From the NCBI GenBank assembly GCA_038232515.1, contig JBBSHS010000003.1:1-60054 (forward strand): a DNA stretch of 60,054 nt. The letters are read 5' to 3'. The translations under genes and the position numbers were made by a program. The notes below the pieces were generated by a model. The model was given only the letters and a program-made list of their open reading frames with translations, did no database searches and was not told where the DNA came from. Positions 53,867 through 60,054 of this stretch are shown here, piece after piece; within the stretch, counting starts at the first letter, position 1, and each line of letters begins with the position of its first letter. The stretch is from Acidimicrobiales bacterium (GTDB lineage Bacteria; Actinomycetota; Acidimicrobiia; Acidimicrobiales; JAUJNH01).

Positions 53867-55183
53867 ATGCCTGCCCGACGCCGCGAGCTTCGACCCGTGG
53901 CCAGGGCAGCCATCGGGCTCGCAGTGGTCACCAGCATGTTCGCTCTGGCCGCTCCGGCGGAGGCGGCCCCCAATGCAGGGGGGCCAGCCAGGCCCGGCGT
54001 ACTGGCGGCATCCACCTCCACCACCCGCCCGGCCGGCGCCACCACCACCCGCCCGGCGGCCACCACCACCACCCTGCCGCCGCCGCTGCCGGGGCCACCC
54101 ATAGCCGGACCGCCCATACCGCCGACGATCCCCGGCGCGCCGCCGACAACACAGGCCCCCCCGCCTGACCCGACTCCGATCCTCAACGCCGTACAGGCGG
54201 GCATGGCCCGGCTCGACGCTCTGGGCCGGGTGCAGGCGGACAAGACCGTGACCGCTACGGCCGACGGCACCGTCGCCACCGCCGACGCCCAGGCCCAGCA
54301 GGCGTCCCAACTGGCCACGTCCACCCGCGACACGGCCCAGCGTGACATCGTCGCCTACCAGGCGAAGGTGGCCCGCATCGCCACCGCCGTGTACGCCAAC
54401 CCGGCGCTGTCCCTGCCGCCGCCCCCGGGGTCCCAGGCTCCCGACATCGACACGTCCGTGGTGCTCCCAGTCGTGTTCAAGGGCGTGAAGCAACGGCTCC
54501 ACGACGCCCATGCCCAGCTGGCCGAAAGCGTCAACATGGCGGCCCGGGCGGCGGAGCTGGCCAAGGTGGCGGCCGCCGCCCATGCCCAGGCCAACGCTGC
54601 CCGCGCCGCGCTCAACCACGACATGGCTCTGGCCCGCGGCACCCCGGCGATCTTCAGCATGGGCGGGCCCAGCATCATGGGGCCGCTGACGGTGACGGGC
54701 CCCGAAATGGCCGGCTGGTTCACCGCCATGGGCCACCACGTCGCCACCCAGGCGACGATCATCGACCTGGCCAACGCCTACGCCGCGCAGGGCATGGCGA
54801 CGGGGGTCAGGGCCGACATCGCGTTCGTCCAGTCCATCCTGGAGACGGGCTGGTTCTCGTTCCCCGCCGGTGGCCAGCTGGACCCGGGCGACAACAACTT
54901 CGCCGGCATCGGCGCCTGCGACAGCTGCCACCACGGCTGGGCCTTCAAGGACACCACCACCGGTGTCGAGGCCCAGCTCGAGCTTCTGCGGTCGTACGCG
55001 TCGACTCAACCGGTGCCCACACCGGCCCTCGGCAAGGTCGGCGTCCACGGCTGCTGCCCCACCTGGATGTCCCTGACCGGGGTGTGGGCCACCAGCCTGG
55101 CGTACGGCGTCTCCATCCTCGGCCTCTACCAGCAGCTACTCGAATGGGTCATCCCCCAACGGGCGGCGGCCGCCGGCGCCTGA
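53867..55183 (+). CDS. Secreted GH73 glucosaminidase-domain protein (autolysin-like)
   Basis: Signal peptide, Thr/Pro linker, coiled coil, QSILETGW, NNFAGIGA, WAT...YG. Confidence 0.85.
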   Translation: MPARRRELRPVARAAIGLAVVTSMFALAAPAEAAPNAGGPARPGVLAASTSTTRPAGATTTRPAATTTTLPPPLPGPPIAGPPIPPTIPGAPPTTQAPPPDPTPILNAVQAGMARLDALGRVQADKTVTATADGTVATADAQAQQASQLATSTRDTAQRDIVAYQAKVARIATAVYANPALSLPPPPGSQAPDIDTSVVLPVVFKGVKQRLHDAHAQLAESVNMAARAAELAKVAAAAHAQANAARAALNHDMALARGTPAIFSMGGPSIMGPLTVTGPEMAGWFTAMGHHVATQATIIDLANAYAAQGMATGVRADIAFVQSILETGWFSFPAGGQLDPGDNNFAGIGACDSCHHGWAFKDTTTGVEAQLELLRSYASTQPVPTPALGKVGVHGCCPTWMSLTGVWATSLAYGVSILGLYQQLLEWVIPQRAAAAGA

Positions 55184-55242
55184 TCCGCTCGCTGTCCCGG
55201 CCGCAGCTTTCAGGAGCCCGGCGAATGTGCGACGATCCGCGC

Positions 55243-55839
55243 ATGCCCACCGTGCACCTCTCGTTGAGCCAGGACGCCGCCGCCGATGCACTGTTGTCCA
55301 AGGACCCGCTGGCCCTGCTCATCGGCATGGTGCTCGATCAGCAGGTCCCCCTGGAAAAGGCGTTCCGGGGGCCGTACGACCTGAAGGAACGGCTGGGCGT
55401 GACCAAGCTCGACGCGGCCACGTTGGCCGGCATGGACGCCGACGACCTGACCGCCGCCTTCGTCGCCCAGCCCGCCCTGCACCGGTACCCGGCGGCCATG
55501 GCCAAACGGGTGCAGGACCTGTGCGCGGTGGTCGCCGGCGAGTACGGCGGCCGGGCCGACCGGTTGTGGAAGACAGCCCCCACGGGTGCGGAGCTGTTGC
55601 GCCGGGTGCAGGCCCTGCCCGGGTTCGGCGAGCACAAGGCCAGGATCTTCGTGGCCCTGCTGGGCAAGCAGCTGGGGGCTCGACCGCCGGGTTGGCGCGA
55701 GGCCGCCGGCCCGTACGGGGAGGAGGCGTCCCACCGCTCGGTGGCCGACATCACCGGACCGGAGTCGCTCAGCCGGGTCCGCGCCCACAAGCAGCAGATG
55801 AAGGCGGCGGCCAAGGCGAGGGCGGCTGCCCAGCCGTGA
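55243..55839 (+). CDS. HhH-GPD family base-excision repair-like protein
   Basis: LLIGMVLDQQVP.E.AF.GP, LHRYP..MA, LPGFG..KA.IF.ALLGK, RSVADI. Confidence 0.9.
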   Translation: MPTVHLSLSQDAAADALLSKDPLALLIGMVLDQQVPLEKAFRGPYDLKERLGVTKLDAATLAGMDADDLTAAFVAQPALHRYPAAMAKRVQDLCAVVAGEYGGRADRLWKTAPTGAELLRRVQALPGFGEHKARIFVALLGKQLGARPPGWREAAGPYGEEASHRSVADITGPESLSRVRAHKQQMKAAAKARAAAQP

Positions 55840-56036
55840 ACGTGGTGGCCAACGGCGAGCGGGTCGAGGTGGGCGACGGGGCCACGGTCGAGGATCTGCT
55901 GGGCCTGCTCGGGCTCGGGGCCAGGTGGGTGCTGGTGGAGCGCAACGGCGAGCCGGTCGACCGCTCCGACCTGGCCACCACTGCGCTGTGCGAGGGCGAC
56001 CGACTGGAGCTGGTCAGAGCGGTGGCCGGTGGCTGA
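55836..56036 (+). CDS. thiS: Sulfur carrier protein
   Basis: GTGA overlap with the upstream stop; VERNGE, GDRLELVRAVAGG C-terminus; 66 aa. Confidence 0.93.
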   Translation: MNVVANGERVEVGDGATVEDLLGLLGLGARWVLVERNGEPVDRSDLATTALCEGDRLELVRAVAGG

Positions 56037-56733
56037 GGCCCTGCGCCCTCCGAGGGCGACCGACGACCCGACCAGCTCCCCCGCCCGGCCCGTCCACCCC
56101 AAGCTGGTCGGGCGCCGGATGTACCTGTGCACCCCCGACCGCCCCGACCTCCTCGCCTTCGTCACCGCCTGCGTCGAGGGAGGGGTCGACCTCGTGCAGC
56201 TGCGGGACAAGGTCCAGGAGGCGGGGCCGCTGCTGGAAAAGGCCGCCCTCCTGTGCGCCCGGTGCCGAGAGCTCGGGGTGCCTTTCATCGTGAATGACAG
56301 GCCCGACATCGCCGTGGGCTGCGGCGCCGACGGGGCCCACGTCGGCCAGGACGACGTCCCGCCGGCGCTGGCCCGGCGCATCCTCGGCCCCGACGCCGTC
56401 ATCGGCCTGTCGACGCACGGGCCGGCCCAGCTGGCGGCGTCGGTCGACGAGCCCGTCGACTACGTGTCGGCCGGCCCGGTGGAGGCCACGCCCACCAAGC
56501 CAGGCCGGCCAGGCGTGGGCCTCGGCTACGTCACCCAGGCGGTGGCCGGGGCGGGCCGCCCGGTGTTCGTCACCGGCGGGGCCAACCCGACCACGGTGGC
56601 GGCCATCGTCGCCGCCGGCGCCCACCGGGTGGTGGTGGTGCGCTGGCTCACCGAGGCCACCGACCCGGGCGCCGCCGCCCGGGCCCTGCGCACCGCCCTC
56701 GACCGGGCCCTCGCGCCCGCCAGCAGACGATGA
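56029..56733 (+). CDS. thiE: Thiamine-phosphate synthase
   Basis: VQLRDK, VNDRPD, HVGQDD, GLSTH, TPTKPG. Confidence 0.94.
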   Translation: MAEALRPPRATDDPTSSPARPVHPKLVGRRMYLCTPDRPDLLAFVTACVEGGVDLVQLRDKVQEAGPLLEKAALLCARCRELGVPFIVNDRPDIAVGCGADGAHVGQDDVPPALARRILGPDAVIGLSTHGPAQLAASVDEPVDYVSAGPVEATPTKPGRPGVGLGYVTQAVAGAGRPVFVTGGANPTTVAAIVAAGAHRVVVVRWLTEATDPGAAARALRTALDRALAPASRR

Positions 56734-56783
56734 CGCTGCCACCCCGCCCGAGCAGGGCCGGAGGGCAGATCCCCTGCCGTGGG

Positions 56784-57560
56784 CTACCAGGCGGGAGCGC
56801 TCGCCTGACGTTCCAACCAGCCCAGCAGGATGGCCACGGCCCTGGGATCGTGGCGCAACTGGTGGCCGGCGCCGGTGATGATGCGCAGTTCGACCTGACC
56901 GTCGGCGGCGTCGGCCAGGGCCCGGGCGTCGACCATCGGAACCTCCTCGTCCTCTGCGCCGTGGACGAGGAGGATGGGCCGGGGAGGCACGGCCGGGATC
57001 TCGTGGATGGGACGGTAGTGGCGCAGCTCCTGCGACCAAGCGTCGAACTGGGCCGGCGAGTGCCGGGTGGCCAGCACCCCCACCGTGCGGGCGTGCTCGG
57101 CGAAGCGCCTGGGGTCCGACGCCCACTCGTCGAAGTCGGCCGGGGCACCGAAGGCGGCGACCCCCCGTACCCGTTCGTCCTGGGCCGCAAGGCAGATGGC
57201 GAGGGCGCCACCGGCGGCGAACCCGGCCAGCCACACCCCGGCGACATCCTGCTCGTTCAACAGCCGGTCTATCCCCGCACGCATGTCGGCCAGCCATCCC
57301 GACAGCGAGAACTCGCCTCCGCTGGCACCGGTCCCGCGCAAGGACAGGGCCAGCACCACCCAGCCGGCGTCGGCCGCCAGCCGGTCGGCCAGGTCGGGCA
57401 GGGTGGCCGCCGCCGTCGCCGCCCCCTTGGGCCCACTCGGGAAGCCGTGGGCCAGGACCAGGCCGCTCCGGGTGCGGTCGGCTCCGGCCGCCGACGCCTG
57501 GGGACGGGCGAGGTGGGCCTCCAGCACGATGCCGTCGCCCACCATGACCTGGGTCTCCAC
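56784..57560 (-). CDS. Alpha/beta fold hydrolase-like protein
   Basis: HGFP, RGTGASGG, GFAAGG elbow, VHGAEDEEVP, GAGH.LRH. Confidence 0.85.
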   Translation of the reverse strand: METQVMVGDGIVLEAHLARPQASAAGADRTRSGLVLAHGFPSGPKGAATAAATLPDLADRLAADAGWVVLALSLRGTGASGGEFSLSGWLADMRAGIDRLLNEQDVAGVWLAGFAAGGALAICLAAQDERVRGVAAFGAPADFDEWASDPRRFAEHARTVGVLATRHSPAQFDAWSQELRHYRPIHEIPAVPPRPILLVHGAEDEEVPMVDARALADAADGQVELRIITGAGHQLRHDPRAVAILLGWLERQASAPAW

Positions 57561-57604
57561 GTCAGGCGGCCGGCGGCTGGGCCGCCGTCACCGGCGCGGC
57601 ACCG

Positions 57605-57799
57605 TCACCCGTGCCGCCGATAGCCCCGGTTGCGGGCCTCGGGGAGGGTGTCGGGACCGAAGGAGGCGAACTGCCCGGACGTCATGAGCTCGTCGACCAC
57701 CGCCTGCTCCAGTTCGGCGTCCTCCAGGTCGTGGACGACCAGGCTGCGTTTGTCACCGAGCCATCGATGGTGCCCGAAGCGGGCAGGTCGCCGGGCCAT
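57605..57799 (-). CDS. Conserved small hypothetical protein (64 aa)
   Basis: MARRPARF..GDKR..VVHDL...FGPDTL.EARNRGYR; ATG lies 6 nt after TACGCT. Confidence 0.75.
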   Translation of the reverse strand: MARRPARFGHHRWLGDKRSLVVHDLEDAELEQAVVDELMTSGQFASFGPDTLPEARNRGYRRHG

Positions 57800-57825
57800 C
57801 ACCGGAGCGTAGGGCCCCGACGCGA

Positions 57826-57857
57826 CGTAGGAGCCTCCGGTTGTGGAGGCTCCTACG
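57826..57857 (-). terminator. 13-bp perfect hairpin ending the upstream structured RNA
   Basis: CGTAGGAGCCTCC-ggttgt-GGAGGCTCCTACG; no U-tract. Confidence 0.75.
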
Positions 57858-58047
57858 CCAGAGACTGCTGGAAAGGCGAATGGGCGTCGGCACTGCGGCG
57901 AGCGGGACCGGCTCTCGCCGCCGAAGACCAAGGGTGACTGGTGGAGATTCACCAGGTGGTCCAGCGGCCACGAACTAGTGGCCAGCCACCTCCAGGGTCC
58001 CGAACAGCTGATCACTGTGCAGTTGGACCACCTCCTTTCTCTGGTAC
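57826..58047 (-). ncRNA. Putative structured RNA (6S-sized or sORF-containing regulatory RNA)
   Basis: 5'/3' end complementarity, two interleaved long-range stems, three local hairpins, terminal hairpin, and lower GC with no long coding frame. Confidence 0.6.
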
Positions 58048-58115
58048 TGCAAGTACATCACAATCGCGGCCCGAAGTGGTGGTGATTCGCCATGATCCGA
58101 CGGACAGAGGCGGAC

Positions 58116-58559
58116 CTACGGGGCCCGGTCCTCGGGGGGAGCCTCGGGCCCGATGGCCTGGATGGCCCGGAGGTAGCCGAGCTGGGCGTCGAGGACGGCG
58201 TGGGCCTGGCGGGGGGAGATGTCCAGGCCGGCCGAGCGGGCTCTGTCCAGCACGAAATCGACCGTCTCGGCCCCTCCCACGACGATACGCCCGTCGGTCC
58301 GGGGACCGGACCCGTTGCCGGTCGGGCCCCTGGATCGGAAGAACTCCAGGTTCCAGTCGATGACCTGGCGGACCTCGTCGTGGCTGAGCACGGCCGACAC
58401 CTCAAAGGGAAGGTGGTCGGCCACCCAGCCCACGGCCTCGTCCAGGTCGAAGACGGGCCTGGGGGGCACGGCATCGAGGCGCCTCGCCTCCCGCCCGATG
58501 ACGGCGGCGGCGATGACCAGGACGATGGCGATGACCAGGACCACGTACACGACGACCAC
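58116..58559 (-). CDS. Conserved hypothetical membrane-anchored protein
   Basis: N-terminal TM, REARRLD, EAV.WVADHLP, YLRAI.AIG; GTG lies 6 nt after TAACGT. Confidence 0.8.
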   Translation of the reverse strand: MVVVYVVLVIAIVLVIAAAVIGREARRLDAVPPRPVFDLDEAVGWVADHLPFEVSAVLSHDEVRQVIDWNLEFFRSRGPTGNGSGPRTDGRIVVGGAETVDFVLDRARSAGLDISPRQAHAVLDAQLGYLRAIQAIGPEAPPEDRAP

Positions 58560-58726
58560 GCCGCGACGTTATGCGTGCCGGAGACGGCACGGCGCACAGA
58601 ACGGACCGGCTCGTGACCCGGTCAGACGCCGTTGGGCCGGGCTGCTCGGCCGGGGTGGTGGACGGCGTGGCTCAGCACGACATCCCACCTTGCGGAAAGC
58701 GCGTCACCATCCGCCAGACTGGCGCC

Positions 58727-59344
58727 ATGGCCACCCCCGTGGAGTTGCGCTGGTCCGACGCCGACGCCGAGGTGCACAGCCTGGTCGTAGGGCCCATGGA
58801 CAACAACGTGTACATCGTGCGGGACAGACGTTCGGGCCAAGCCGTGCTCATCGACGCCGCCAACGAGCACGAACGCCTGCTGGAACTGTGCCGGACGATG
58901 GGCGTGCGCCGGGTGCTGGAGACCCACGGCCACTGGGACCACATCCAGGCCGTGCCCGCCATCCGCGACGCCGGCTACGACGTGGCCGTGACCCGGGCCG
59001 ACGCCGCCATGCTCCCGTCCTACGACTCCCTGCTGGAGGACGACCAGGTCGTCGAAGTCGGCGGACTGAGGCTGCGGACGGTCCTCACCCCGGGGCACAC
59101 GCCCGGTTCCGTCTGTTTCCGCCTCGAGGGCACGCCCCTGCTGTTCTCGGGCGACACGCTGTTCCCCGGCGGCCCCGGCAACACCACCTTCGCCGGTGGT
59201 GACTTCGACACCATCATCGCCTCGCTCGACGGGCGGCTGTTCCGCCTGCCGGACGACACCGTGGTCCTGCCCGGCCACGGTGGCGACACGACCATCGGCA
59301 CCGAGCGCCCCCATCTGCCGGAGTGGATCGAGCGGGGCTGGTAG
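58727..59344 (+). CDS. MBL fold metallo-hydrolase
   Basis: THGHWDH, TPGHTPG, FSGDTLF, PGHG. Confidence 0.93.
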   Translation: MATPVELRWSDADAEVHSLVVGPMDNNVYIVRDRRSGQAVLIDAANEHERLLELCRTMGVRRVLETHGHWDHIQAVPAIRDAGYDVAVTRADAAMLPSYDSLLEDDQVVEVGGLRLRTVLTPGHTPGSVCFRLEGTPLLFSGDTLFPGGPGNTTFAGGDFDTIIASLDGRLFRLPDDTVVLPGHGGDTTIGTERPHLPEWIERGW

Positions 59345-59351
59345 ACCCGAC

Positions 59352-59744
59352 ATGGGAGACATCGCCCTGCCCTACGACCAGCGCCCGGTCGACGACCGTC
59401 CCATCCACACCGCCGACCTGCCACCCACCCCGCAACGGGACCGCAACATCGTCGCCGTCGCCTGGGTCGAGGCTCCTCCCGAGCTCGTCCACCTGGGCGA
59501 TGACCTCTGCCAGCCCCAGGTCGACTACAAGCGCCGCATCGGCCGCTGGCTGCTGTGGCGGGCCGGGCCGGCCACCAAGGCCGACGCCCGCTACATGGCC
59601 CTGGCCGCCGACGACCTCGCTGAGCGCTGGACGTTCCGGCTGTTCGCCGACGGCCACGGCGAGGGCGAAGGGCCCAGCGGCCTGGTCCACACCCGCTTCC
59701 GGGCCTGGAAGGAAGACCTCCGCGACCACGGCGGAAGTTCCTGA
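59352..59744 (+). CDS. Conserved hypothetical protein
   Basis: GC3-rich ORF with YKRRIGRWLLWRAGPA and HTRFRAWKE.L motifs. Confidence 0.75.
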   Translation: MGDIALPYDQRPVDDRPIHTADLPPTPQRDRNIVAVAWVEAPPELVHLGDDLCQPQVDYKRRIGRWLLWRAGPATKADARYMALAADDLAERWTFRLFADGHGEGEGPSGLVHTRFRAWKEDLRDHGGSS

Positions 59745-59817
59745 TCGACCGCAACGGCCTCAGGCCGGGTCGACGGTTCTCCACCGGCGCTCTTGGCAGG
59801 GCCCGCCTCGGCGTCGA

Positions 59818-60054
59818 CTAGGCGACGAGCGAGGCACCGTCCAGCTCGATACCGACGACCTTCGCGATGCGGGCGAGGTCGGCGTCGTAGGCCAGCAATG
59901 AGGCACCTCGGCGCCACGCCACGGAGGCGATCATGCAGTCGAGCATGCCCCGGGGAGTGACGCCGGCGCTTCGGCAACGGCGGTAGATCCGTACAGCAGC
60001 CTCGAAGTCGGCGGTCGCGTCGAAGGTGAGCAGTTGGAACCGGAGCAGCAGCCG
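59818..60054 (-). CDS. vapC: PIN-domain toxin, C-terminal part (5' end outside window)
   Basis: Manual translation: DFEAAVRIYRRCRSAGVTPRGMLDCMIASVA...LLAYDADL. Confidence 0.85.
   Translation of the reverse strand, partial: RLLLRFQLLTFDATADFEAAVRIYRRCRSAGVTPRGMLDCMIASVAWRRGASLLAYDADLARIAKVVGIELDGASLVA

What the first reader, a model, noticed from the sequence alone, without database searches (positions are those of the whole stretch)
57826..58047. Unannotated ~190-220 nt structured RNA with paired ends and a pseudoknot/switch over a perfect SD
Seen in sequence (minus strand): (i) the 5' CCAGAGA (58044-58038) and GAAAGG pair with the 3' TCTCTGG (57864-57858) and CCTTTC, closing a 187-nt unit; (ii) AGGTGGTCCA (58033-58024) has a perfect 10-nt complement at 57963-57954; (iii) GGTGGCTGG (57990-57982) pairs with CCAGTCACC (57941-57933) and interleaves with (ii), giving a pseudoknot or two exclusive folds; (iv) there are local hairpins TGGCCAC/GTGGCCG, TGGTG/CACCA and GCGGCGAG/CTCGCCGC; (v) a 13-bp terminal hairpin follows; (vi) GGAGGTGG occurs twice. 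Established: 6S RNAs are about this size with paired ends, type I toxin mRNAs also use 5'-3' fold-back and SD sequestration, and classical 6S RNA is poorly recognised in Actinobacteria. Inference: this is a stand-alone RNAP-binding (6S-like) RNA or a translationally locked regulatory RNA. From memory, a similar AGAAGGAGGTGGTCCA...GAGGTGGCTG...CAGTCACC element occurs in other Actinobacteria, but this is unverified.
Basis: partly seen in the sequence, partly recalled or inferred. Interest (0 to 1): 0.8.

Follow-up and report, generated by a model that had tools for sequence, protein, structure and literature searches.

The report
Ribosome-binding small RNA with mini-ORF
The flagged stretch is a divergent copy of a known but functionally uncharacterised bacterial small RNA that looks like a tiny, tightly folded mRNA, built to pair with the whole tail of the ribosome's 16S RNA and to be read over a dozen or so codons.

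Summary
The interval is real. It is a divergent member of Rfam family Ms_IGR-5 (RF02471): 40.3 bits against a gathering score of 45, E 8e-7. It is single-copy, appears to have its own promoter, and ends in a hairpin. Stem (i), the "paired ends", is not conserved.

Comparison of 122-124 non-redundant copies shows three things:
- **Extended Shine-Dalgarno.** A 16-17 nt stretch is complementary to the entire 16S 3' tail.
- **Mini-ORF.** A 12-19 codon ORF follows. That frame is always open. The stop codon sits 9 nt after a second GGAGGUG in 122 of 124 copies.
- **Covarying helices.** The 5' end pairs with the codons just before the second SD. The second SD pairs with CAGUCACC. ORF codons GGGAC pair with a 3' hairpin loop.

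The peptide is conserved little beyond what these pairings dictate.

Best reading: a small structured mRNA whose fold is switched by 30S binding or translation. What the switch controls is unknown. The 6S-like and type I toxin readings are not supported. The family also occurs in Acidobacteriota.

The parts
58052..58062 (-). Promoter-like extended -10 (TGTG, one base, TGTACT), 6 nt upstream of the conserved 5' A at 58045
   Evidence: A TGTG followed by a T-rich hexamer recurs at the same distance in group-A homologues, read by eye. The consensus scan found no sigma-70 site. This is an inferred feature, not a mapped start.
57826..58045 (-). Whole Ms_IGR-5-family RNA, from the predicted 5' end to the end of the terminator hairpin
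   Evidence: Rfam RF02471 match 57874-58045, model positions 1-184 of 184, 40.3 bits, E 8.4e-7. One copy in the genome. Fold z -3.11.
58024..58040 (-). SD1: 16-17 nt extended Shine-Dalgarno (AGAAAGGAGGUGGUCCA), complementary to the whole 16S 3' tail
   Evidence: Predicted duplex with a relative's 16S tail: 17 bp, -30.8 kcal/mol. The tail sequence was read. In 5 of 5 relatives the element's antisense is the only match within 1 mismatch to the 16-nt tail apart from the one 16S hit.
57975..58022 (-). Mini-ORF: CUG start, 15 codons (LHSDQLFGTLEVAGH), UAG stop
   Evidence: In-frame start-like codon 4-9 nt after GGAGGTGG in 22 of 22 relatives. Stop exactly 15 nt after GAG in 122 of 124 copies, and canonical starts in frame 99 against 31 out of frame. 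Frame 0 is open in 122 of 122, while frames +1 and +2 carry stops in 70 and 71 of 122.
58041..58044 (-). P1, 5' strand (CCAG)
   Evidence: Pairs with 57992-57995. 100% paired in A1, with AU:22/GC:10 and GC:17/AU:14/UA:1. Family-wide, 112, 113 and 108 of 122 are paired against shuffled means of 55.5, 59.8 and 76.3.
57992..57995 (-). P1, 3' strand (CUGG): the codon before SD2 plus the first G of SD2
57996..58001 (-). S2 (GGGACC, codons Gly-Thr). Pairs either with GGUCC just after SD1 (P2) or with the loop of the 3' hairpin (pseudoknot).
   Evidence: The S2:S4 pairing is 94.3% paired, with compensatory changes in L031/L093 and L012. P2 is 98.8% paired with no double change, and it loses a pair in L031/L093.
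57982..57993 (-). SD2 (GGAGGUGG, 57993-57986) and the 5' strand of the SD2 helix (57990-57982)
   Evidence: Second copy of GGAGGTGG (D2). The helix is 91.3% paired with 5 pairs showing double changes. RNAalifold recovers it independently. Own against foreign 5' strands: 9.03 against 7.91 pairs of 10.
57933..57941 (-). Anti-SD2 (CCAGUCACC)
57954..57963 (-). Anti-SD1 (UGGACCACCU), a look-alike of the 16S tail that pairs with SD1
   Evidence: 88.8% paired in A1. Changes occur on the 3' side only, because SD1 is invariant. Predicted duplex -20.1 kcal/mol.
57966..57983 (-). Hairpin that holds the stop codon in its loop (GGCCAC UAGUUC GUGGCC)
   Evidence: 81.3% paired, 2 pairs with double changes. 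The inner 3 pairs are in the RNAalifold consensus.
57938..57955 (-). Local hairpin CUGGUG / CACCAG with the conserved GAAUC-type loop. It is an alternative to parts of the SD1 and SD2 helices.
   Evidence: 68.4% paired, 3 pairs with double changes. The alignment is poor in this region.
57895..57921 (-). 3' hairpin HP3. Its loop carries the near-invariant GGUCCC (S4, 57904-57909).
   Evidence: I4. 8 of 8 pairs show double changes. G142, T143 and C144 are invariant in A1.
57961..57965 (-). Long-range helix Pc, 5' strand (GCUGG). Overlaps anti-SD1 by 3 nt.
   Evidence: Pairs with CCAGC 57867-57871. 91.3% paired, 2 pairs with double changes, 3 of 500 shuffles reach this level.
57867..57876 (-). 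Conserved CCUUUCCAGC: CCAGC is the 3' strand of Pc, and CCUUUC could pair with GAAAGG of SD1
   Evidence: Pc is supported. The CCUUUC:GAAAGG pairing is not distinguishable from chance.
57826..57857 (-). 13-bp terminator-like hairpin without a U tract
   Evidence: I1. A G+C-rich hairpin sits at the same place in homologues. The consensus scan found no intrinsic terminator.

Best explanation
The element is a divergent member of the Ms_IGR-5 small-RNA family. It is best understood as a very small, highly structured mRNA, not as a purely non-coding RNA.

It is transcribed from its own promoter, starting near 58045. It begins with a 16-17 nt Shine-Dalgarno that can pair with the entire single-stranded 3' tail of 16S rRNA. 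It then carries a 15-codon ORF (58022-57975). The stop codon lies at a fixed 9 nt after a second SD-like GGAGGUG.

In the free RNA, the 5' end, both SD-like elements and part of the ORF are tied up in covarying helices:
- P1.
- SD1 with an internal look-alike of the 16S tail.
- SD2 with CCAGUCACC.
- ORF GGGAC with the loop of the 3' hairpin.

Inferred mechanism: a 30S subunit out-competes the internal anti-SD (-30.8 against -20.1 kcal/mol predicted). The ribosome then reads the short ORF and unwinds P1, the pseudoknot and the SD2 helix. It stops where SD2 sits at initiation-like spacing from the P site. This frees the 3' domain to refold into local hairpins.

The RNA would therefore report or consume free ribosomes. 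What the switch controls is not known. Candidates are the RNA's own stability, exposure of anti-SD-like or loop sequences, or titration of 30S subunits.
For: Family:
- Full-length RF02471 match at 40.3 bits, E 8.4e-7. Single copy.
- 23 of 41 relatives have one match, 7 of them over the gathering score.

ORF:
- 22 of 22 relatives have an in-frame start-like codon 4-9 nt after SD1.
- In 124 non-redundant copies the stop lies 15 nt after GAG in 122 (TAG 98, TAA 15, TGA 10).
- Canonical starts 3-13 nt after SD1 fall in frame 99 times, against 10 and 21 in the other two frames.
- 97 copies have a canonical open in-frame start. The other 27 have a near-cognate one only.
- Frames +1 and +2 carry stops in 70 and 71 of 122. 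Frame 0 carries none.
- Ser at residue 3 occurs in 56 of 122, encoded by both codon families (AGT 22, AGC 15, TCT 13, TCC 3).
- Ribosome footprints on Ms_IGR-5 homologues in M. abscessus and M. smegmatis are reported in PMC4974804 (passage read).

Structure:
- P1.
- SD2 helix.
- S2:S4 compensatory changes.
- HP3.
- Pc.

16S pairing.

Own promoter and varying neighbours.

Discrete transcripts in Streptomyces: PMC8079986 and PMC8780764 (passages read).
Against: - The score is below Rfam's gathering threshold (40.3 against 45).
- The window's copy, and 27 of 124 copies in all, have no AUG, GUG or UUG in frame. They have only CUG, AUU or AUC. Initiation there is assumed.
- The conserved residues (G-T-L/S-E-V-A) coincide with RNA pairings, so the open frame could partly be a by-product of RNA constraints.
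- SD1 never varies, so its helix with anti-SD1 has no covariation. Anti-SD1 was seen in the Acidimicrobiia-type group only.
- The copies are related, so these counts overstate independent support.
- The own genome has no assembled 16S, so a relative's tail was used.
- No RNA data exist for this organism.
- The switch and its output are inference. Nothing shows what the RNA regulates.
Confidence: 0.6

Rival explanations
1. A non-coding ribosome decoy or base-pairing sRNA. The extended SD binds 30S subunits, or the anti-SD-like CU-rich segments bind mRNA ribosome-binding sites. The short ORF is incidental or only tolerated. The function is titration of 30S or repression of targets in trans.
For: SD1 is the strongest 16S-tail complement in the genomes checked. 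GAGGTG is invariant at nucleotide level while the next codon varies. The peptide is hardly conserved. The RNA stands alone with varying neighbours. The promoter is near consensus, with an A tract, in Actinomycetes and Acidobacteriota.
Against: It does not explain why the frame is open in all copies while the other frames carry stops in 57-58%. It does not explain why start codons track the frame (99 against 31). It does not explain why the stop uses all three stop codons at one fixed place. No target is known.
Confidence: 0.2
2. A genuine small-protein gene. The 12-19 residue peptide is the active product and the RNA structure only tunes its synthesis.
For: Coding signatures. Ser at residue 3 is encoded by both codon families. 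Ribosome footprints are reported in two mycobacteria (PMC4974804).
Against: The N-terminal half varies in length and sequence. The conserved C-terminal residues all coincide with covarying or invariant RNA elements. From the codon counts, many early codons end in A or T, which by my own reading (not a measured codon usage) runs against the usual preference of G+C-rich genomes.
Confidence: 0.1
3. A cis-acting element: a leader or attenuator for the downstream 64-aa gene (57605-57799), or the 3' UTR of the upstream 147-aa gene (58116-58559).
For: In the Acidimicrobiia-type group, the small downstream gene is on the same strand in 16 of 35 loci. The upstream gene is on the same strand in 22 of 40 loci. 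The arrangement of short ORF, alternative helices and terminator resembles an attenuator.
Against: In Actinomycetes the flanking genes differ: FUR, GCV_T-type, THAP4 heme-binding, Aminotran_4. The downstream gene there is on the opposite strand in 22 of 55 loci. A promoter-like motif precedes the element in all groups. The stop codon lies 118 nt before the terminator, and no conserved anti-terminator was seen. S. avermitilis maps it as an sRNA unit (PMC8780764).
Confidence: 0.06
4. A 6S-like or Ms1-like RNA that binds RNA polymerase.
For: Its size is about 200 nt. The own genome has no recognisable 6S at E<=0.01, at 87.6% completeness.
Against: Neither 6S nor Ms1 is among the matches listed at E<=10 for window 55000-60054. 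The 5'-3' closing stem is not conserved. The conserved features are SD-like elements and an ORF, not a rod with a central bubble.
Confidence: 0.02
5. A type I toxin mRNA kept translationally locked.
For: The SD is sequestered by a long-range complement. The ORF is short.
Against: The peptide is 12-19 residues and looks polar with no hydrophobic stretch, by eye. It is a single chromosomal copy kept across phyla. No antisense partner was seen.
Confidence: 0.02

Closest known systems
Ms_IGR-5 (Rfam RF02471), actinobacterial sRNA first reported in Mycobacterium smegmatis
   Same: Full-length match to the model. The same conserved blocks are present: GGAGGUGGUCC, GAGGUGGCUG, GAAUCC...CAGUCACC, and a GUCC hairpin loop. 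It is single-copy and intergenic. Family members are expressed in Streptomyces and carry ribosome footprints in mycobacteria.
   Different: It scores 4.7 bits below the gathering threshold. It is in an Acidimicrobiia-type genome and has a non-canonical CUG start and an extra anti-SD1 segment. The Rfam consensus structure shown leaves the 5' 13 positions and CAGUCACC unpaired. It therefore contains neither P1, nor the SD2 helix, nor the pseudoknot found here. No function or ORF is mentioned in the passages I could read.
Leader-peptide attenuators and regulatory upstream ORFs (trp, erm-type)
   Same: A short ORF whose translation would remodel mutually exclusive helices. Four segments of GGUCC/GGACC type can pair in two ways.
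   Different: There is no conserved downstream gene across the family. No run of regulatory codons was seen. The ORF ends far from the terminator.
Dual-function sRNAs (SgrS/SgrT, RNAIII/hld, SR1/SR1P; recalled)
   Same: An sRNA-sized transcript with its own promoter and terminator that is also engaged by ribosomes.
   Different: Here the peptide is hardly conserved beyond RNA constraints, and no base-pairing target is known.
Type I toxin mRNAs with SD sequestration (hok, tisB type; recalled)
   Same: A long-range complement hides a strong SD.
   Different: The peptide is too short and not hydrophobic. There is no antitoxin RNA. It is a conserved housekeeping-like locus.
prfB (RF2) frameshift site: an internal SD at a fixed distance before a stop (recalled)
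   Same: An SD-like element inside an ORF, placed at a fixed short distance upstream of a stop codon.
   Different: The spacing is 9 nt. All three stop codons are used. There is no downstream frame to shift into.
6S RNA / Ms1
   Same: Similar size and abundance class.
   Different: No model match. No conserved closing stem or central bubble.

Membership tests
Ms_IGR-5 (RF02471) | Covariance-model score at or above the curated gathering score (45 bits) | tested here: not met
   40.3 bits, E 8.4e-7 over 5 kb, and E 1e-7 in the genome. It covers model positions 1-184 of 184. Relatives form a continuous series from 22.5 to 60.4 bits.
Ms_IGR-5 (RF02471) | Conserved sequence blocks in order: GGAGGUGGUCC, GAGGUGGCUG, GAAUC-type loop, CAGUCACC, hairpin with a GUCC loop | tested here: met
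   The alignment to the model. Alignment A1. Actinomycete copies.
Ms_IGR-5 (RF02471) | Single-copy intergenic locus with its own promoter and terminator | tested here: met
   One match in the genome. It lies between ORFs. A promoter-like motif is conserved. There is a terminal hairpin. The start site was not mapped.
Ms_IGR-5 (RF02471) | Expressed as a discrete small RNA | not testable with these tools
   No RNA holder is listed for this DNA. Expression is shown only for Streptomyces members in papers.
6S RNA | Match to the 6S model | tested here: not met
   6S is not among the matches listed at E<=10 for window 55000-60054. None in the genome at E<=0.01.
6S RNA | Conserved closing stem of the 5' and 3' ends around a rod with a central bubble | tested here: not met
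   The 5'-3' stem is paired in 47.2% of cells against 46.8% in shuffles. The consensus fold is P1, the SD2 helix and HP3.
6S RNA | Binds RNA polymerase holoenzyme | not testable with these tools
   This needs an experiment.
Type I toxin mRNA | Encodes a hydrophobic membrane peptide, usually 20-60 aa | tested here: not met
   The peptide is 12-19 residues. By eye it is polar, as with LHSDQLFGTLEVAGH in the window. No hydropathy score was computed.
Type I toxin mRNA | Antisense or overlapping RNA antitoxin | not tested
   No conserved opposite-strand element was noticed. It was not searched for systematically.
Leader-peptide attenuator | Regulated gene downstream on the same strand, throughout the family | tested here: not met
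   16 of 35 loci in one group have a same-strand small gene. In Actinomycetes the next conserved gene is on the opposite strand in 22 of 55 loci.
Translated small ORF (small mRNA) | Start at SD-appropriate spacing, open frame and conserved stop, with the other frames closed | tested here: met
Translated small ORF (small mRNA) | Ribosome occupancy or peptide detected | not testable with these tools
   Footprints are reported for mycobacterial homologues only (PMC4974804, passage read). That paper's supplementary data were not seen.

The most novel reading that the evidence does not exclude
Ms_IGR-5 is not an ordinary sRNA. It is a widespread ribosome-sensing mini-mRNA, present in Actinomycetota and Acidobacteriota, with look-alikes in Leptospira, Syntrophobacter and Sumerlaeota records. 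It pairs with the complete 3' tail of 16S rRNA. It carries its own split copy of that tail as a competitor. It uses a fixed-length round of translation, ending beside a second SD, to flip a pseudoknotted fold. It would thereby measure or buffer the pool of free, initiation-competent 30S subunits.
Probability: 0.3. Interest if true: 0.85.

Novelty: new member of a known kind. Interest (0 to 1): 0.6.

Why it matters
Ms_IGR-5 has been listed as an sRNA without a function, and the few papers I could find only name it. If the reading here holds, four things follow.
- An orphan family gets a testable mechanism: a translated mini-ORF inside a covarying, pseudoknotted fold.
- The RNA would have the most extensive complementarity to the 16S 3' tail in the genomes checked.
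- The family reaches beyond Actinomycetota.
- The Rfam consensus structure would need revising.

It also illustrates a practical point for genome scans. A near-threshold Rfam hit in a poorly studied class was real.

Tried and rejected
- **Consensus scans.** The promoter and terminator scan found nothing in 57500-58700. The promoter and terminator are therefore argued from conservation only.
- **Expression in this organism.** No RNA holder is listed. Of the laid contigs of four runs, one 229-nt contig in a run of uncertain type covers 57861-58047 and ends there. That is too weak to count.
- **Generic S2:S4 test.** A test across all copies was uninformative, because 6-mers find partners by chance (own 5.53 against foreign 5.37 of 6). 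The pseudoknot rests on the aligned group and on a few Actinomycete cases read by eye.
- **Own 16S.** It is not assembled, so a relative's was used.
- **6S.** The search of the own genome was empty.
- **Flanking small proteins.** Pfam and NCBIfam gave nothing for the 147-aa and 64-aa proteins.
- **tRNA genes.** tRNA-Gly(GCC) follows the element in only 2 of 24 loci scanned (L052, L125), so no general link exists.
- **Literature.** Searches for other names of the RNA found nothing. Broader searches found no functional study.
Rejected as chance.
- **CCUUUC:GAAAGG.** Left open.
Full report
**Observation.** I read the minus strand of 57500-58700. The repeat finder confirms four of them: the 13-bp terminal hairpin (57826-57838 / 57845-57857), GCGGCGAG / CTCGCCGC, the SD complement (15 nt, 87%), and the two copies of GGAGGTGG. 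It also confirms CCAGAGA / TCTCTGG. The 246-nt stretch folds to -113.7 kcal/mol, with z -3.11, and none of 200 shuffles folds as well.

**Identity.** An Rfam scan of 55000-60054 at E<=10 gives one credible match. It is Ms_IGR-5 (RF02471) at 57874-58045 on the minus strand, covering model positions 1-184 of 184. It scores 40.3 bits against a gathering score of 45, with E 8.4e-7. Neither 6S nor Ms1 is among the 10 matches listed. The genome is 2.5 Mb in 121 contigs and 87.6% complete, and it holds one copy.

Three papers in the searchable library name the family. I read the matching passages only.
- S. lividans lists it as confirmed by RNA-seq (PMC8079986).
- S. avermitilis maps it as an sRNA transcription unit (PMC8780764).
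- A study of M. abscessus reports significant ribosome-protected reads on its homologues in M. abscessus and M. smegmatis (PMC4974804).

None of these passages gives a function. Searches for other names found nothing.

**Homologue sets.**
- *Set 1.* 23 of 41 genomes of the same order, G000 included, have one match at E<=0.01. Seven of them score over the gathering threshold (loci L001-L023).
- *Set 2.* I scanned one genome per species for GGAGGTGGTCC, then 14-44 bases, then GAGGTGGC. The names include Mycobacterium, Streptomyces, Micromonospora, Nocardioides, Pseudonocardia, Acidimicrobiia and Solirubrobacteraceae. They also include Acidobacteriota, Leptospira, Syntrophobacter, Sumerlaeota and Eisenbacteria.
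- *Rows dropped.* Before counting I dropped 11 loci that by eye are chance matches inside genes: L024, L046, L050, L060, L063, L064, L078, L099, L112, L122 and L127. Identical sequences were collapsed, taking 132 down to 124. L083 and L109 are the two exceptions and were dropped from later counts.

**A conserved mini-ORF.**
- In 22 of 22 order-level homologues that match my SD expression, a start-like codon lies 4-9 nt after GGAGGTGG and is in frame with a stop. The starts are CTG 15, ATT 2, ATC 2, ATG 2 and GTG 1. The peptides are 12-17 residues and end in G-T-L/S-E-V-A-G-R. L008 has GGGAGG and was missed by the expression.
- In the 124 non-redundant copies the stop lies exactly 15 nt after the G of GAGGTG in 122. 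It is TAG 98 times, TAA 15 and TGA 10. Only GAGGTGGC was fixed by the search pattern, so the stop is an independent observation.
- Canonical start codons 3-13 nt after SD1 fall in that frame 99 times, against 10 and 21 in the other two frames.
- 97 copies have a canonical open in-frame start. The other 27, the window included, have only a near-cognate one.
- Frame 0 is open in all copies. Frames +1 and +2 of the variable part carry stops in 70 and 71 of 122.
- Lengths are 12 (70 copies), 13 (12), 14 (31), 15 (3), 17 (3), 18 (1) and 19 (2) residues.
- Residue 3 is Ser in 56 of 122, using AGT, AGC, TCT and TCC.

In the window the ORF is 58022-57975 (CTG ... TAG).

The peptide is otherwise weakly conserved. 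GAGGTG is invariant as nucleotides while the next codon varies. The conserved residues coincide with RNA pairings.

**Structure.** On alignment A1 I used 32 of the 41 Acidimicrobiia-type sequences. I left out nine:
- Seven belong to a subgroup with a long insertion: L023, L027, L073, L074, L075, L086 and L137.
- L013 has a deviant 3' half.
- L113 is a near-duplicate.

Results on A1:
- *P1* (58044-58041 with 57995-57992) is paired in 100% of cells, with AU:22/GC:10 and GC:17/AU:14/UA:1.
It shows no double change because SD1 never varies.
- *Pseudoknot* between ORF GGGACC (58001-57996) and the hairpin loop GGUCCC (57909-57904) is 94.3% paired. It has compensatory changes in L031/L093 and in L012. 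The alternative local pairing of GGUCC with GGACC loses a pair in L031/L093.
- *HP3* covaries at 8 of 8 pairs.
- *Pc*, a further long-range helix (GCUGG 57965-57961 with CCAGC 57871-57867), is 91.3% paired, with two pairs showing double changes.

Family-wide checks:
- For P1, across 122 copies, three pairs are formed in 112, 113 and 108 cases. The shuffled means are 55.5, 59.8 and 76.3.
- For the SD2 helix, each copy's own 5' strand finds 9.03 of 10 pairs. Foreign strands find 7.91, and the own strand is better in 103 of 113 copies.
- RNAalifold independently returns P1, the local GGUCC:GGACC hairpin, the SD2 helix and HP3.

GAAAGG:CCUUUC cannot be told from chance.

Several helices share bases, so the RNA has either a knotted fold or two states. 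One state has the SD helices and the pseudoknot. The other has the local hairpins around the stop codon and the GAAUC-type loop.

The Rfam consensus line shown contains none of P1, the SD2 helix or the pseudoknot.

**Pairing to 16S rRNA.** The own assembly has no 16S. In relative G017 the 16S ends in GGCUGGAUCACCUCCUUUCU. The Rfam SSU match covers 1-1514 of L155.
- In five relatives there are six places within one mismatch of the 16-nt tail. One is that 16S. The other five are the antisense of the element in each genome.
- Predicted duplex energies:

| Pairing | Energy (kcal/mol) |
|---|---|
| SD1 with the 16S tail (17 bp) | -30.8 |
| SD1 with anti-SD1 | -20.1 |
| SD2 with the 16S tail | -17.0 |
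| SD2 with anti-SD2 | -17.4 |

- The upstream regions of 103 long ORFs in the window have a median of -7.4 and a minimum of -20.2.
- Anti-SD1 (UGGACCACCU) differs from the 16S tail by one base and follows a hairpin, so it resembles the end of 16S.

**Stand-alone unit.** Read by eye:
- Actinomycete and Acidobacteriota copies are preceded by a near-consensus -35 and -10 with an A tract.
- The window's group has TGTG plus a T-rich hexamer 6 nt before the conserved 5' A.

Neighbouring genes differ by lineage.
- In the window's group, a 147-aa membrane-anchored protein lies upstream in 22 of 40 loci. A 64-76 aa protein lies downstream in 16 of 35, and an alpha/beta hydrolase in 20 of 35.
- In Actinomycetes, FUR and GCV_T-type genes lie upstream, and a THAP4-type heme-binding gene lies downstream on the opposite strand in 22 of 55 loci. 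In a Mycobacterium locus, a class IV aminotransferase gene lies just upstream.

**Distribution.** All four tallies below include unpublished genomes, so the prevalence figures rest partly on them. No sequence from those genomes is quoted.

| Phylum sampled | Search | Genomes with a match |
|---|---|---|
| Actinomycetota | Rfam model | 45 of 151, 22 over threshold |
| Actinomycetota | Strict pattern with a stop-like ending | 139 of 401 |
| Acidobacteriota | Rfam model | 4 of 101 |
| Acidobacteriota | Strict pattern with a stop-like ending | 20 of 401 |

- The reversed control pattern hit three Actinomycetota genomes and five Acidobacteriota genomes (six hits).
- In Actinomycetota some families reach 27 of 27 while others are 0 of 33.
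- Two Acidobacteriota copies pass Rfam's threshold, at 52.3 and 47.7 bits.

**Mechanism.**
- *Shown:* family membership in all but score, the coding signature, the covarying helices, and the exceptional complementarity to the 16S tail.
- *Reported by others:* transcripts and ribosome footprints in relatives.
- *Inferred:* 30S binding to SD1 displaces the internal anti-SD. Reading the short ORF then opens P1, the pseudoknot and the SD2 helix. The ribosome stops with SD2 at initiation-like spacing. The 3' domain refolds. What this switch controls is unknown.

**Limits.**
- There is no RNA data for this organism.
- The copies are related, so the counts overstate independent events.
- The supplementary files of the cited papers were not available. 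They may hold coordinates and Ribo-seq tracks that bear on the ORF.

Noticed in passing
window 57605-57799 (-): A 64-aa ORF (MARRPARFGHHRWLGDKRSL...) lies right after the terminator. It has no Pfam or NCBIfam match. It is kept on the same strand in 16 of 35 Acidimicrobiia-type loci. The homologue in L004 also has no Pfam match.
   Followed up: partly
window 58116-58559 (-): A 147-aa protein with an N-terminal hydrophobic stretch lies upstream on the same strand. It has no Pfam or NCBIfam match. It is conserved in 22 of 40 related loci.
   Followed up: partly
window 58077-58092 and 57939-57954: A 16-nt direct repeat at 88% identity (D1). The upstream copy lies between the upstream gene and the promoter-like motif. 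On the minus strand it reads like the family's GGCGAAUC...CACC block. It may be a partial duplicate of the loop and anti-SD2 region.
   Followed up: no
window 57826-57857 (-): The two arms of the terminator hairpin themselves contain CCUCC and GGAGG. This is a third SD/anti-SD-like pair. It is not seen in the homologues' terminators.
   Followed up: no
L052 2257-2435 and L125 4832-4906: In two Terriglobales-type loci the element is followed on the same strand by tRNA-Gly(GCC), and in L052 also by tRNA-Cys. This was not seen in the other 22 loci scanned.
   Followed up: partly
mini-ORF start region in all loci (window 58022-58002): The first codons after the start are unusually A+T-rich for these G+C-rich genomes (CAT, AGT, AAT, ATT, ATA, TAT). 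They often contain out-of-frame stops such as TGATAG or ATAG. This could be an unstructured landing pad, a set of rare codons, or a separate motif.
   Followed up: partly
G061 (two contigs): One genome of the phylum sample has two copies of the element on different contigs. It is 93% complete with 2% contamination. Every other genome with a match has one.
   Followed up: no
window 57861-58047: In a run of uncertain type (X3) a 229-nt contig of a close relative covers just the element and ends at 58047, 2 nt before the predicted 5' end. This could be a transcript-derived contig or an assembly break at a conservation boundary.
   Followed up: no
L023, L027, L073-L075, L086, L137: A subgroup of Acidimicrobiia copies reads GGUGGCCGAG after SD2. 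It has one downstream segment, CUCGGACCACC, that could serve as partner for both SD1 and SD2, after a long insertion.
   Followed up: no
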